Of a stretch of 53,451 nt of DNA, positions 10,999-22,935 are shown piece by piece (the first letter of the stretch is position 1; each line of letters begins with the position of its first letter). A model generated the notes under the pieces. That model saw only the letters and a list, made by a program, of their open reading frames with translations, was not told the DNA's origin and made no database searches. This stretch comes from a virus (Duplodnaviria; Caudoviricetes), in IMG/VR virus record IMGVR_UViG_3300030333_004406, positions 1-53,451 of that record; one strand, 5' to 3'. The translations under genes and the position numbers were made by a program.

Positions 10999-13900
10999 TT
11001 ATCTATGAGCGTAACATTTTTTACTTTTATGTTCTGTTCTATTTTTACATCTATTACCAGATGATGTGGTTGCTTTGCATTGGTATTCTTTTATACCATC
11101 ATTATCTCTATCGCTACCTTCATTTGGTTTATACGAGGTGTGATAACCACATCTAGCGGCTTTTCCTTTTTTAACCCAAACCATAATACTACATCTTTTA
11201 CCTTTAGAATTTGTAGCTCCACATCTTTTATGTAATAAGCCTTGAGATTTTTTCTCTTCTATCTCTTGCTTTTTTTGCTCTTCTTTTTCTTTCTCTCTTT
11301 TTATTTGATTTTCTATTTTTCTTTTTTCGTAAGCCTTTTCTTTAGCTATATCTAATTCTTCGTCTCTAGCCCCAACGTTCCATCTATTCCAACCTAAAGT
11401 CATAGCTGCTCGTTGCCACCAATAATGATCTCCACTAATAGCTTCCTCTAAGTTATTAGCCTTGTTAACCAACCTAGCTAAAGGAACATTAAATAAAGCT
11501 TCTATAACATTAGCGGTAGCATGTATATTTGGATTTTCAATTCTAAACCCTAGTTCACCACTAACTCCCTCGTTGTAATGCCATGTTTTATGAGCACCAT
11601 ATAATTTTCTTGCTTTAGCTCCAATGGGTGGAGATAGGTTTATAGCTTCAATAACAACATTACCAAAGTCATCTTTACCCCAGTCCTTAGCCATTTCTTT
11701 TCTATATTGAAGTATCACGTTTTTAAGCGTAGATACTGAAGCACCGTATATACCTGTACCTCTAAGCAATGTATCGAAAGCCCCGTTAACTACTTGTAGT
11801 TCTTTCTTTTCAATCATCTCTTCTTGATCACTACCAAATAACAACCAACCTAAACCAGATTGTAAAGTATAGAACCATAAATTCTGCATAGCTCCATAAT
11901 ATAATATTCTAGATATATTAGCTCTATCACTTTGCCACTGAGTCTTGTGTCCCTCTGTTCTCCTTCTATTAACAAGATCAGATAAAGCTTTCTTCATTAA
12001 CCTAGTCATCTGCATAGGTGTGTTATGCCAAGGTAATATTATACGCCCCAATGGACCAGCTTGTTGCTGTGATATCAAGTCTGGTCGAGAAGACTGTTGT
12101 GTTTCTTCTGCTATTTCTTGAAAATCTAACCAAGCTTTTTCTTTGGCTTTAGCTTCTGATAAACCCTGCTTTAAATACATGTTTATTCTATTCCTATAAT
12201 ATGGTGCGCCACCAAAAGCTATAGCAAAACTATCTGCGATCCTAGTTGGTGTAAACCCTTTTTGTAACAACCACTGTAGTATTGCTTTAGGATTTTTACC
12301 GCTTTTTTCAAAAACATTAGTTAACTCGTTGGCTGATACATCTATTTGTAATCCAGCTCTTCTTTGTTTTAGCATTGGAGAATTCATTATAAAAGCGAAA
12401 TCTTTCCAGAATTGTTTTTGATTAGCGAAAGCTTTAGCTTGAGCAAATATATTATTCTCCATGTGGTTAGTAAAGTTAACCGTCGATATGGTTTGTAGCA
12501 TGGCAGATCTAACGTTCCAGAACATAGTTGCACCAACAGAACCGTTTATCCAATCATACCAGTTATTTGTAATTGAATCACCAGTATTGGTCATTCTATT
12601 ACGACCAGTTTCCATTCTCCACAATATATTTTCTAAAGCTTCTCTATAATACTTACCATGTATAGCTTCTATTTTATTTAAATTATCTTTTGAGAATATT
12701 ATATTTTTATTTTCAATCCATTCTGCGAAAAAATTCTTTCTGCCACCTTGTCCAACCATAAAGTTTAAATCACTAGCTATACTCTCAACCATCCAGTATT
12801 CACTTGGAGCACTATATCCTTCTTTTAATCTAGTTATAGCACTAAGCGATTCAGCAAATGCCATCAGGTTTGGATTGTTCTTAACATGTGATGTTAACAT
12901 CTCTAGTTCTACTTTACTGATACCAGGAACCTCAAACCCCGCTTTCTCCCATAAATACGCTCTAACAGCAGCGTCTTTAGTGTGGATGGTTCCTTCAACA
13001 TTTTCATTTAAATCAAAATCTTTTTTGTATTGCTTTTTAAGAGTCTTGTATTCTTCAGACATTTTTTGTTTAACAATTGTTAGGTCTCTGGTTGACTTAG
13101 CAAACGGATCCATTAATGCTTTTTTAAAGAATTTCATATCAGCATCTCCTTGACGACCTTTACCTAACATTTTATATATCAAACCCTTAAAGTCTTCGGC
13201 TGATGGAGGAACAAAATAATCAAATCTACCTTTACCTCTACCCATCAATTTAGCTTCTTGTAAAGATACAATTTTATCAGCTGGTAGTTTAGATTGTCTT
13301 TCTAGTATTTCATTAAAGTTTCTATTCATGCTATTACTAAATCTAGCTTTAGCTTGAACAACTTTAGATTTAACATCTAATTGATCTAAAACTTTCTTGA
13401 CGGCCTCAACATTAGGTAGAGCATCATCGACAAAATACATATCATTATATCCTTCAGCAAACTTTTCTAACATCCACTTAGCTTTAGCGTTAGCAGAACT
13501 ATTAGCCAATCCAGTTATATTCTCTATAGATATATCTAGTCCTTGTGATTTTAAAAACTCTTGTATAGCTTTAGCAGATTCAACTGGTCTAGCTGTTAAA
13601 ACAAACAGATCTTTCGTTCCAAACTTCTTAGCTCTTTCTATAGCTTTTTGTAGATACGGTCCCTCTGTTCCCTCTACTACTTGTTCGAATTCTGAAAAAT
13701 CGAATTTACCTCCTTTCTTTAATATAGCATCTCCTTGTGCAGCAAACTCAGCCGCGTCTAATCTTAACTTCTCGTAACTTCTAACAAAGTCATTCATCTT
13801 AGAAACAAGTTCCATAGGCATAGGACTCTCCATTGTTAGATTGTCAGTTTTGATTTCCATAAATCTCTCTCCAAATAAGTTTTTAAAATCAAGTTTATTA

Positions 13901-22935: not shown

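What the first reader, a model, noticed from the sequence alone, without database searches (positions are those of the whole stretch)
10999..22935. Giant putative ejection protein acting as a pre-assembled host-takeover toolkit
Seen: a 3978-aa ORF, last and largest of three genes after the tail block. It contains an EF-hand-like loop, a HExxH zincin, a sigma-region-2-like segment, a HAD phosphatase with a nested P-loop kinase, a helical/TM-containing region and two Cys3His repeats. Established: in crAss-like phages such as phi14:2 and crAss001, large cargo proteins are ejected into the host and include a virion RNA polymerase; polyvalent proteins use zincin MPTase domains. Inference: I found no RNAP catalytic motif here, so this lineage may inject a self-processing polyprotein with transcription-redirecting and nucleotide- or RNA-end-modifying activities instead.
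Basis: partly seen in the sequence, partly recalled or inferred. Interest (0 to 1): 0.85.

Follow-up and report, generated by a model that had tools for sequence, protein, structure and literature searches.

The report
Giant modular cargo protein of marine podoviruses
A single 3978-residue gene in the virion gene block of a marine flavobacterial-type podovirus strings together a sigma-factor-like domain, a metalloprotease motif and a nucleic-acid-end kinase/phosphatase, and is probably packed in the particle and shot into the host cell.

Summary
The 3978-aa ORF (10999-22935, minus strand) is real. It makes up 22% of a 53.5-kb virus record related to Cellulophaga phi38:1/Calle and Flavobacterium elemo podoviruses, not to crassviruses.
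- a HAD phosphatase with a polynucleotide-kinase-like P-loop kinase inserted after motif I
- a sigma-70 domain-2-like fold, supported by exhaustive structure search and by profile-profile comparison with controls
- an invariant HExxH motif
- two C-terminal Cys3His knuckles

The EF-hand and TM claims are weak. No RNA polymerase fold was seen in aa 1590-3978.

New here:
- The protein belongs to a large uncharacterised marine family of at least 747 giants.
- A short conserved N-terminal tag and an invariant C-terminal HAD/helical/Zn-knuckle module flank a shuffled set of optional domains.
- The gene always follows a muzzle-like gene and four small genes. In cultured relatives that slot holds giants annotated as structural proteins.

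Packaging, ejection, self-cleavage and any action on host RNA polymerase remain inferred. First readers of this scan noted relatives in at least seven other genomes. I class it as a new variant of the polyvalent/cargo protein kind, of moderately high interest.

The parts
10999..22935 (-). Whole ORF, 3978 aa plus stop
22816..22935 (-). N-terminal tag, aa 1-40. The family consensus printed by the HMM is MKKYKLSDGKTVTVSPEDEEQFLKKNPNANLV.
   Evidence: An HMM built from relatives finds it in 126 of 180 giants that have an N-terminus, starting at median residue 2. Controls (internal and reversed segments) gave 1 hit in 360.
22591..22629 (-). EF-loop-like pattern 1, aa 103-115
   Evidence: Pattern match only; the pattern was recalled from memory.
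20785..20823 (-). EF-loop-like pattern 2, aa 705-717 (DLNDDNVITKNEL)
   Evidence: Pattern match only. Two matches were seen against 0.0165 expected per shuffle.
18886..19938 (-). Gly-rich, moderately hydrophobic region, aa 1000-1350
   Evidence: Hydrophobic peaks lie at aa 1008-1026 and 1079-1097, and G+P is 16%. The region is found in 21 of 188 relatives, always together with the zincin. It was not folded.
18166..18888 (-). Lys/Glu-rich stretch, aa 1350-1590. Coiled-coil character is judged by eye.
   Evidence: K+R is 21-22%; sequence. It was not folded.
17536..18168 (-). Zincin-like module, aa 1590-1800. HEIGH lies at aa 1625-1629 (nt 18049-18063). The candidate third ligand is the Glu of YYDEY.
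   Evidence: HExxH is invariant in 24 of 24 relatives. Invariant positions are H41, E42, H45, E140 and Y141 in A6. The motif lies in a predicted helix preceded by two strands. No family or fold match was obtained.
16888..17253 (-). Sigma-70 domain-2-like domain, aa ~1895-2016
16036..16758 (-). Helical module, aa 2060-2300, function unknown
   Evidence: Found in 50 of 188 relatives. Predicted helical, pLDDT 50-78.
14566..15498 (-). 'KGEH' alpha/beta domain, aa 2480-2790; enzyme-like, no known family
   Evidence: pLDDT is mostly 80-97 in blocks of 10, with a few lower blocks. Invariant residues are K, E-H, T, H, D, R and Q-T in 10 of 10 rows. Found in 44 of 188 relatives. No PDB, Pfam or Atlas hit.
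14356..14451 (-). HAD phosphatase, first strand with motif I (DFDDT at aa 2836)
13765..14355 (-). P-loop kinase inserted into the HAD, aa 2861-3057
13336..13764 (-). HAD phosphatase, motifs II-IV (LTAR, K, DD), aa 3058-3200
11296..13338 (-). Universal all-helical C-terminal domain, aa 3200-3880
   Evidence: Present in 188 of 188 relatives at 44-69% identity. All-helical model. No solved-structure match.
11140..11223 (-). Cys3His knuckle 1, aa 3905-3932
11005..11079 (-). Cys3His knuckle 2, aa 3953-3977
   Evidence: The module is present in 152 of 188 relatives.

Best explanation
The gene encodes a giant, modular internal virion ('cargo' or polyvalent) protein of a marine Bacteroidota-type podovirus. 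It is made late, packed into the particle and delivered into the cell at infection.

A short N-terminal tag and an invariant C-terminal block frame the protein. The block comprises a HAD phosphatase, a large helical domain and two Zn knuckles. I infer that the tag and the block are the packaging, anchoring and ejection part. Between them lies a recombining set of optional payload domains.

In this phage the payload is:
- a zincin-like HExxH module
- a sigma-70 domain-2-like module
- an unknown 'KGEH' enzyme-like domain
- a polynucleotide-kinase-like kinase inserted into the HAD, which together form a permuted T4-Pnkp-like end-healing unit

Shown: the ORF, its family, its synteny, the domain folds and motifs, and the conserved-ends, variable-middle layout.

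Inferred:
- presence in virions and ejection
- that the sigma-like domain engages host RNA polymerase or melted DNA
- that the kinase/phosphatase acts on nucleic-acid ends
- that the zincin cuts the chain at junction motifs
For: Context:
- The window is the whole virus record.
- TerL, portal, capsid-like and muzzle-like genes match phi38:1/Calle and the elemo phages.
- In 80 related loci the order is muzzle, p641, p155, p221, p463, giant, p1375, all on one strand. The p221 gene lies upstream in 67 of 80 loci.
- The same slot holds giants annotated 'structural protein' in phi38:1 (1691 aa), Calle and elemoE (3694 aa), and a 3859-aa CDS under another product name in MW202828.
- ElemoE gp18 and the MW202828 giant share the 'GKIxIN...HExxH' context.
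- In crAss001 the genes after the muzzle gene are cargo found in virions by mass spectrometry (PMC10172136).

Family:
- 747 giants have E<=1e-3.
- The C-terminal block is present in 188 of 188, the kinase in 141, sigma-2 in 41 and the zincin in 39.
- The N-terminal tag is present in 126 of 180.

Domains:
- Kinase and HAD.
- Sigma-2.
- HExxH.

Other:
- Cys is nearly absent outside the knuckles.
- Polyvalent proteins, including zeta-like kinases, have been described for phages (PMC5512222, passages read).
Against: - No direct evidence places this protein, or any sequence-detectable homologue, in a virion.
- BLASTP finds no similarity to phi38:1 gp101 or to the MW202828 giant.
- HMMs of the C-terminal block give only borderline scores on the cultured giants (best full E 0.0022).
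- Those giants lack the HAD motif I, the P-loop and the Cys knuckles.
- The 'structural protein' labels are taken from database records. I did not see the underlying proteomics.
- The muzzle link is below Pfam's cut-off.
- Structure matches of the C-terminal domain to phage structural and polyvalent proteins in BFVD have TM-scores of only 0.15-0.19.
Confidence: 0.55

Rival explanations
1. The protein is mainly a structural ejectosome or channel component, like T7 gp14-16 or P22 gp7/16/20. It spans the envelope for DNA passage. The enzymes serve entry rather than takeover: a zeta-type kinase acts on UDP-GlcNAc and the zincin acts on cell-wall peptides.
For: - PMC5512222 proposes this role for zeta-like kinases in polyvalent proteins.
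- The C-terminal domain is long and all-helical, and there is a Gly-rich hydrophobic stretch.
- Podovirus ejection proteins form channels (PMC10172136).
Against: - The kinase is nested in a HAD whose listed match is the T4 Pnkp phosphatase.
- A sigma-2-like domain has no obvious role in envelope passage.
- Hydrophobic segments are few and weak.
Confidence: 0.2
2. The sigma-2-like domain does not direct transcription. It acts either as a decoy that occupies the sigma site on host core polymerase and shuts the host off, or as a single-stranded-DNA or DNA-end binder that protects or pilots the incoming genome.
For: - Only domain 2 is present. All alignments stop at model residues 306-427.
- The Trp pair of the region aligned to sigma region 2.3 is replaced, as seen in the aligned sequences.
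- The domain is optional in the family, in 41 of 188.
Confidence: 0.15
3. The protein is an intracellular late polyprotein for repair or modification that is never packaged.
For: There is no direct virion evidence, and the enzymes could act in the producing cell.
Against: - The position inside the structural operon is fixed across 80 loci.
- Giants in the same slot of cultured relatives are annotated as structural.
Confidence: 0.07
4. The protein hides a very divergent virion RNA polymerase, as in crAss-like or N4-like phages.
For: The gene order resembles that of crassviruses, aa 1-1590 were not folded, and the 'KGEH' domain is unassigned.
Against: - phmmer against all PDB chains found nothing at E<=1.
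- tblastn of both halves against 50,697 phage records hit only the kinase.
- Foldseek ranks phi14:2 gp66 (6vr4_A) at E 1.2, probability 0.03.
- The only DxDxD is in the Zn-knuckle linker.
- The N-terminal 2800 aa vary across the family, which is unlike an essential polymerase.
Confidence: 0.03

Closest known systems
Polyvalent proteins of phages and conjugative elements (Iyer et al. 2017, PMC5512222)
   Same: Many unrelated effector domains sit in one very large phage polypeptide. A HExxH peptidase motif and a zeta/P-loop kinase are present. Domain content shuffles between relatives.
   Different: No MuF, MPTase-PolyVal, ART or LPD Pfam domain was detected. The constant part is a C-terminal HAD, helical domain and Zn-knuckle block plus a short N-terminal tag. 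The word 'sigma' occurs 0 times in that paper's main text.
Crassvirus cargo proteins and virion RNA polymerase (crAss001 gp45-gp50; phi14:2 gp66)
   Same: Giant genes follow the muzzle gene and small cargo genes. Delivery before the DNA would allow early control of transcription.
   Different: No polymerase fold or motif was found. The phage belongs to another lineage. At most a sigma domain-2-like module is carried, and only in 41 of 188 relatives.
T4 polynucleotide kinase/phosphatase (Pnkp) and bacterial Pnkp/Pnkp1
   Different: The kinase is inserted after HAD motif I instead of preceding the phosphatase. It is optional (141 of 188) and lies after the HAD in L041/P0012/P0014. No ligase partner was seen. 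The unit is embedded in a 3978-aa protein.
Sigma-70 family, domain 2 (regions 1.2-2.4); minimal sigmas such as T4 gp55 (recalled)
   Same: The fold and the register of regions 2.1-2.3 agree.
   Different: It is below Pfam's threshold. No domain 4 was found. It is not a free protein but a module of a giant.
Giants in the same slot of cultured relatives (elemoE gp18, 3694 aa; phi38:1 gp101 and Calle gp001, 1691 aa; MW202828 CDS, 3859 aa)
   Same: The position at the end of the virion block is the same. ElemoE gp18 and the MW202828 giant share the HExxH context.
   Different: Otherwise there is no detectable sequence similarity. They have no HAD motif I, P-loop or Cys knuckles.

Membership tests
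Sigma-70 family | Domain-2 fold (helices of regions 1.2-2.4) | tested here: met
Sigma-70 family | Sequence membership (Pfam Sigma70_r2 at its gathering score) | tested here: not met
   0 of 13 members hit at E<=10. The own genome has no hit. One relative scored 11.6 bits against a cut-off of 24. Profile-profile comparison is positive: E 0.0012, with 0 of 200 shuffles reaching the score.
Sigma-70 family | Domain 4 (-35 recognition) and/or domain 3 | tested here: inconclusive
   No alignment extends beyond model residues 306-427. The downstream helices are unassigned.
Sigma-70 family | Binds core RNA polymerase and directs initiation | not testable with these tools
   Needs biochemistry.
Polynucleotide kinase/phosphatase (T4 Pnkp type) | P-loop kinase of the PNK/AAA_33 type | tested here: met
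Polynucleotide kinase/phosphatase (T4 Pnkp type) | HAD phosphatase with DxDxT, S/T, K and DD motifs | tested here: met
Polynucleotide kinase/phosphatase (T4 Pnkp type) | Kinase N-terminal to the phosphatase in one two-domain enzyme | tested here: not met
   The kinase is inserted between HAD motif I and motif II.
Polynucleotide kinase/phosphatase (T4 Pnkp type) | Activity on 5'-OH and 3'-P polynucleotide ends | not testable with these tools
   Needs an enzyme assay.
Zeta toxin kinases | Pfam Zeta_toxin at its gathering score | tested here: met
Zincin metallopeptidases | HExxH plus a third ligand in a zincin fold | tested here: inconclusive
   HExxH is invariant in 24 of 24 relatives, and a Glu is invariant in 7 of 7. 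No peptidase family was found by Pfam or PDB profile. The fold lists were filled by the sigma domain.
Polyvalent proteins (Iyer 2017) | Several unrelated effector domains in one phage polypeptide, with variable architectures | tested here: met
Polyvalent proteins (Iyer 2017) | Signature domains (MuF, MPTase-PolyVal, ART-PolyVal, LPD) | tested here: not met
   None appears in the Pfam scan of the whole protein at E<=0.1 or of the zincin segment at E<=10.
Virion RNA polymerase (crAss-like gp66 type or N4 type) | Double-psi-barrel or T7-like polymerase fold with a catalytic Asp motif | tested here: inconclusive
   None was seen in aa 1590-3978. aa 1-1590 were not folded. There is no sequence hit.
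EF-hand | Paired helix-loop-helix Ca-binding motifs | tested here: inconclusive
   Two isolated loop-pattern matches lie 600 aa apart. They were not folded.

The most novel reading that the evidence does not exclude
These abundant marine podoviruses deliver a ready-made sigma domain-2 module into the cell as part of an ejected giant protein. With it come a permuted Pnkp-like end-healing enzyme and other payloads. Host RNA polymerase would then be captured or redirected at the moment of DNA entry. This would be a third strategy, beside virion RNA polymerases (N4, crassviruses, phiKZ) and injected modifiers (T4 Alt). The payload set would be exchanged by recombination between a fixed N-terminal tag and a fixed C-terminal ejection block.
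Probability: 0.22. Interest if true: 0.85.

Novelty: new variant of a known kind. Interest (0 to 1): 0.62.

Why it matters
If packaging and ejection are confirmed, this family would be a natural protein-delivery chassis: a fixed tag and a fixed C-terminal block carrying exchangeable payloads. It is present in hundreds of ocean virus genomes that infect Bacteroidota, which are major degraders of algal blooms.

A sigma-like domain delivered with the DNA would be a new way for a phage to take over transcription without carrying its own polymerase. I found no description of one in the polyvalent-protein paper (PMC5512222) or in the one literature search I ran for it.

The nested HAD-kinase unit and the 'KGEH' domain are further uncharacterised enzyme candidates.

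Tried and rejected
Sequence searches that gave nothing:
- phmmer of the whole protein against PDB chains found 0 at E<=1.
- The profile of the C-terminal core against PDB gave only chance-level hits.
- The zincin and KGEH profiles against PDB and Pfam found nothing.
- tblastn of aa 1-2000 against phage records found no match.
- ESM Atlas on aa 2300-2800 and on aa 1-1000 gave no usable hit.
- The search for related loci with the middle region alone found none.

Fold searches:
- Foldseek of the middle model against PDB had no hit at E<=0.1. The row with the highest probability was Mtb SigA (E 0.32, probability 0.28).
- In all four VIA runs one domain filled the list. The zincin, the aa 2060-2300 module, the KGEH domain and the C-terminal helical domain therefore remain effectively unsearched by fold.

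HNH idea: other first readers suggested an HNH-like reading of the 'EHxxP' motif. I could neither support nor exclude it.

Cultured giants: HMMs of this family's domains against elemoE gp18, phi38:1 gp101 and the MW202828 giant gave mostly noise. The exception was the zincin context (domain E 1.7e-4).

Complex prediction: the sigma-like domain with B. thetaiotaomicron RpoC residues 215-365 returned 'no answer' (score 0.27, mark 0.32). This is evidence neither way.

T7-type RNA polymerase: the Pfam search of the own genome is uninformative, because nothing rang in the control genomes.

Junction motif:
- x[FYLM]S[KR] lies within 30 aa upstream of HAD motif I in 73 of 168 giants, against 2.7% of random windows. 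It lies at the HAD end in 110 of 188.
- In this protein it is degenerate at both HAD borders and present (MYSK, aa 1919-1922) at the start of the sigma-like domain.
- Cleavage there is untested.

Papers:
- PMC5512222, PMC10172136, PMC8776804 and PMC13288928 were read as found passages only.
- The elemo phage paper was not found in the library.
- The Holmfeldt 2013 proteomics is recalled and was not seen.
- Supplements were closed. They may hold the virion proteome lists that bear on the 'structural protein' labels.
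Full report
THE OBJECT

The ORF at 10999-22935 (minus strand, ATG start) is open for 3978 codons. The window is the entire virus record: 53,451 bp, CheckV estimate 98% complete, no terminal repeats. The gene is therefore 22% of the genome held. Nearly all long ORFs lie on the minus strand.

WHICH PHAGE

PHROG and Pfam scans of the neighbours give these assignments:
- large terminase, 42069-44318
- portal, 39670-42072
- a capsid-type 'virion structural protein', 36938-38446
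- two smaller structural proteins
- a 2250-aa 'virion structural protein', 27491-34243
- GroES and GroEL
- a DUF5675 protein, a MAM-domain protein and an endonuclease

The terminase matches 89 phage records. The best is the uncultured podovirus MW202828.1 at 62.5% identity. Next come 68 Flavobacterium 'elemo' phages at 44.8% for the rows shown. Cellulophaga, Tenacibaculum and Maribacter phages follow. The 2250-aa protein matches the large structural protein of phi38:1, phi40:1, Calle and the elemo phages.

The phage therefore belongs with the Pervagoviridae and Elemovirus podoviruses of marine and brackish Flavobacteriia, not with crassviruses (taxonomy lines; PMC8776804, passages). The only tie to crassviruses is a sub-threshold hit of the 2250-aa protein to the crassvirus muzzle C-terminal domain (E 5.1e-5, 24.1 bits against a cut-off of 27).

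THE FAMILY

A length-restricted search found 747 proteins of 2187-6962 aa with E<=1e-3. A search among shorter proteins found 1790 more. Most come from short contigs and so are probably fragments. The only source names are 'predicted kinase', 'hypothetical protein' and an automatic 'UDP-N-acetylglucosamine kinase [uncultured virus]'.

IMG/VR held 217 confirmed stretches. I kept 80 loci, on contigs of 11.8-72 kb. Their complete giants are 2138-4137 aa long.

Coverage of the query by the 119 best relatives is complete from about aa 2800 to the end. It falls to 0-30 of 119 over the first 2700 residues.

I built HMMs for eleven segments and searched 188 non-identical giants at domain E<1e-4:

| Segment | Present in (of 188) |
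|---|---|
| HAD C-part | 188 |
| C-terminal helical domain | 188 |
| Cys3His module | 152 |
| kinase | 141 |
| aa 2060-2300 | 50 |
| aa 2480-2790 | 44 |
| sigma-like | 41 |
| zincin | 39 |
| aa 700-1000 | 24 |
| Gly-rich hydrophobic region | 21 |
| aa 200-700 | 3 |

These counts are lower bounds, because the HMMs come from close relatives. The set is also biased towards high scorers. Architectures are many, with 25 or more different orders.

The extreme N-terminus is conserved although the next ~2000 residues are not. An HMM with consensus MKKYKLSDGKTVTVSPEDEEQFLKKNPNANLV matches 126 of 180 giants that have an N-terminus, starting at median residue 2. Controls (internal and reversed segments) gave 1 hit in 360. 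The layout is therefore conserved ends and a shuffled middle.

SYNTENY

In the 80 loci the genes upstream of the giant are relatives of the window's 221-aa (67 loci), 155-aa (57), 463-aa (37), 641-aa (14) and muzzle-like (11) genes. The last two are limited by the 10-kb flank. Downstream lie relatives of the 1375-aa (37), DUF5675 (32) and 350-aa (49) genes. All are on the same strand.

In cultured relatives the same slot, after the muzzle-like gene and three small genes, holds:
- phi38:1 gp101 (1691 aa, 'structural protein')
- Calle gp001 ('structural protein')
- elemoE gp18 (3694 aa, 'structural protein')

MW202828 has a 3859-aa CDS there under an unrelated product name.

These giants are not detectably similar to the query by BLASTP. 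They lack HAD motif I, a P-loop and the knuckles. ElemoE gp18 and the MW202828 giant do carry a HExxH in the same 'G-K-I-x-I-N ... HExxH' context as this family (HMM domain E 1.7e-4).

In crAss001 the genes after the muzzle gene (gp45, gp46, then the 150-280 kDa gp47, gp49 and gp50) were found in virions by mass spectrometry and are modelled as ejected cargo (PMC10172136, passages).

The virion reading therefore rests on position and analogy, not on homology to a protein proven to be in a virion.

KINASE AND PHOSPHATASE

Pfam finds AAA_33 (E 1.5e-10) and Zeta_toxin (E 8.7e-8), both above their cut-offs, at aa 2861-2997. PHROGs finds phrog_12810 and 'polynucleotide kinase'.

The kinase sits between DFDDT (aa 2836) and the remaining HAD motifs. 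In an alignment of 55 sequences the HAD motifs (FDFD-E/D-T; L-T-A-R; K; F-V-D-D) are invariant.

In 33 of 80 loci the kinase is missing. There motif I (GMSTFDFDET) is followed after a short insert by the rest of the HAD. In L041, P0012 and P0014 the kinase lies after the HAD segment.

An AlphaFold2 model of aa 2800-3978 (55-row alignment, mean pLDDT 69.3) was compared exhaustively with 48,161 chains:

|---|---|---|---|
| 4gp6_A | C. thermocellum Pnkp kinase | 16.2 | rmsd 2.7, 161 of 171 residues |
| 1ltq_A | full T4 Pnkp | 14.1 | 243 residues over model 63..383 |
| 4xrp_A | Pnkp1 | 12.5 | |
| 5uj0_B | T4 Pnkp phosphatase domain | 10.9 | rmsd 2.7, 118 of 142 residues, model 29..397, so it bridges the insertion |
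| 1gvn_B | zeta toxin | 13.2 | |

The nested HAD-kinase is therefore real and resembles a permuted Pnkp. The substrate is not established.

SIGMA-LIKE DOMAIN

The segment recurs as an island of 38-42% identity in otherwise unalignable relatives.

Its 13-row profile searched against PDB sequences puts three sigma factors directly after four designed repeat proteins. Those four score only by summed weak repeats. The sigma hits are 8b3z_A (E 0.066), 6pfv_A (E 0.11) and 6pfj_A (E 0.59).

Pfam found nothing in 13 of 13 members.

An AlphaFold2 model of aa 1590-2789 (29 rows, mean pLDDT 68.9; blocks of the sigma-like stretch about 70-80) was compared with all 48,161 representative chains. Ranks 1-14 are sigma domain 2:
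- SigB, pro-sigmaK, RpoS, FliA, sigmaS, SigA, CnrH, AlgU, SigR and BldN

About half of the 50 rows are sigma factors by their descriptions. In the second look, 47 of 50 rows are sigma chains or the sigma-position chain of initiation complexes. I did not verify chain identity row by row. All alignments fall within model residues 306-427.

- 0 of 200 column-shuffled copies reach that score (maximum 15.1)
- the reversed alignment scores 11.0
- the zincin alignment scores 14.8

With '-M first' the match shrinks to 24 columns and E 0.028.

A HMMER search of 1.84 billion representatives finds only 214 proteins at E<=1e-3. Among the best 150, most are giants carrying the domain at residues ~700-1900, and none looks like a canonical sigma. 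Of ten short hits scanned, one gave Sigma70_r2 at 11.6 bits.

Conclusion: this is a remote sigma domain-2 homologue or analogue that is specific to these giants and has no detectable domain 4.

ZINCIN

There is one HExxH (aa 1625) against 0.09 expected by chance. It is invariant in 24 of 24 aligned relatives and is preceded by a conserved 'x-I-Y-I-N' strand. It is followed about 95 residues later by an invariant Glu in YYxEY. The motif lies in a predicted helix after two strands. No peptidase family was recovered, so the fold remains untested.

OTHER PARTS

- aa 2480-2790 is predicted with high confidence: pLDDT is mostly 80-97 in blocks of 10, with a few lower blocks. It has invariant K-x-E-H, H, D, R and Q-T positions in 10 of 10 rows and no match anywhere.
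- The C-terminal domain is all-helical. It matched only close relatives in BFVD, plus long low-TM alignments (TM 0.15-0.19) to giant phage proteins. Those include a Gundel_1 'structural protein' and polyvalent proteins. I treat this as a hint only.
- Six of the eight Cys lie in the two knuckles.
- The EF-hand and TM claims are weak.

NO POLYMERASE

No polymerase was found by sequence or by fold in aa 1590-3978. aa 1-1590 were not folded. They are present in only a small minority of relatives, which argues against an essential enzyme there.

JUNCTION MOTIF

This was a lead from earlier first-reader notes on other genomes. The motif x[FYLM]S[KR] lies within 30 aa upstream of HAD motif I in 73 of 168 giants, most often 13 residues before it (48 cases). 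Only 2.7% of random windows have it. It lies at the HAD end in 110 of 188. In this protein it is degenerate at the HAD and present at the start of the sigma-like domain. This fits modular joints. Cleavage is unproven.

READING

The best-supported picture is a late-made, virion-carried modular protein with fixed ends and exchangeable payloads. That is a new variant of the polyvalent or cargo kind.

How it works beyond this is inference:
- The fixed ends would act in packaging and ejection.
- The sigma-like module would act on host polymerase or melted DNA.
- The Pnkp-like unit would act on nucleic-acid ends.
- The zincin would act at the junctions.

A complex prediction of the sigma-like domain with a Bacteroides beta-prime fragment gave no answer.

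Noticed in passing
window 1-53451: The window is a whole virus record (CheckV estimate 98% complete, no end repeats). None of the 40 ORFs I scanned with PHROGs or Pfam gave a DNA polymerase, primase, helicase or RNA polymerase hit. Nearly all long ORFs are on the minus strand. Relatives are 60-73 kb, so an early or replication module may be missing from the record.
   Followed up: partly
window 27491-34243 (-): A 2250-aa virion structural protein (phrog_14478, E 6.6e-117). It has a sub-threshold hit to the crassvirus muzzle C-terminal domain (PF25729, 24.1 bits against 27). This suggests a muzzle-like tail tip in Pervagoviridae-type podoviruses.
   Followed up: no
window 22959-27481 (-): Four small genes (641, 155, 221 and 463 aa) lie between the muzzle-like gene and the giant. 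They have no family annotation of function (no Pfam hit; only the 155-aa gene hits an unknown-function PHROG) but are conserved in order. The 221-aa gene lies upstream in 67 of 80 related loci. They are candidates for small cargo or ejection proteins.
   Followed up: partly
window 6341-10468 (-): A 1375-aa ORF directly downstream has no PHROG or Pfam hit. Only patchy similarity is seen in 37 of 80 loci, which fits a fast-evolving fibre or receptor-binding protein.
   Followed up: no
window 44815-45393 and 48722-50290 (-): The phage encodes GroES and GroEL, as in phi38:1, the elemo phages and MW202828.1.
   Followed up: no
L088:20843-31927 and L001:741-12320: The giants in the same slot of elemoE (3694 aa) and MW202828.1 (3859 aa) have 0 and 1 Cys. 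They share with each other and with phi38:1 gp101 only short similar stretches (35% over 158 aa; 23% over 348 aa). The slot is conserved and the content is not.
   Followed up: partly
L041, P0012, P0014: In these relatives the kinase lies after the HAD segment instead of inside it. The kinase has therefore moved at least once within the family.
   Followed up: partly
window 1462-1890 (-): A 142-aa endonuclease (phrog_452, E 1.5e-41) lies in the gene cassette at the end of the operon.
   Followed up: no
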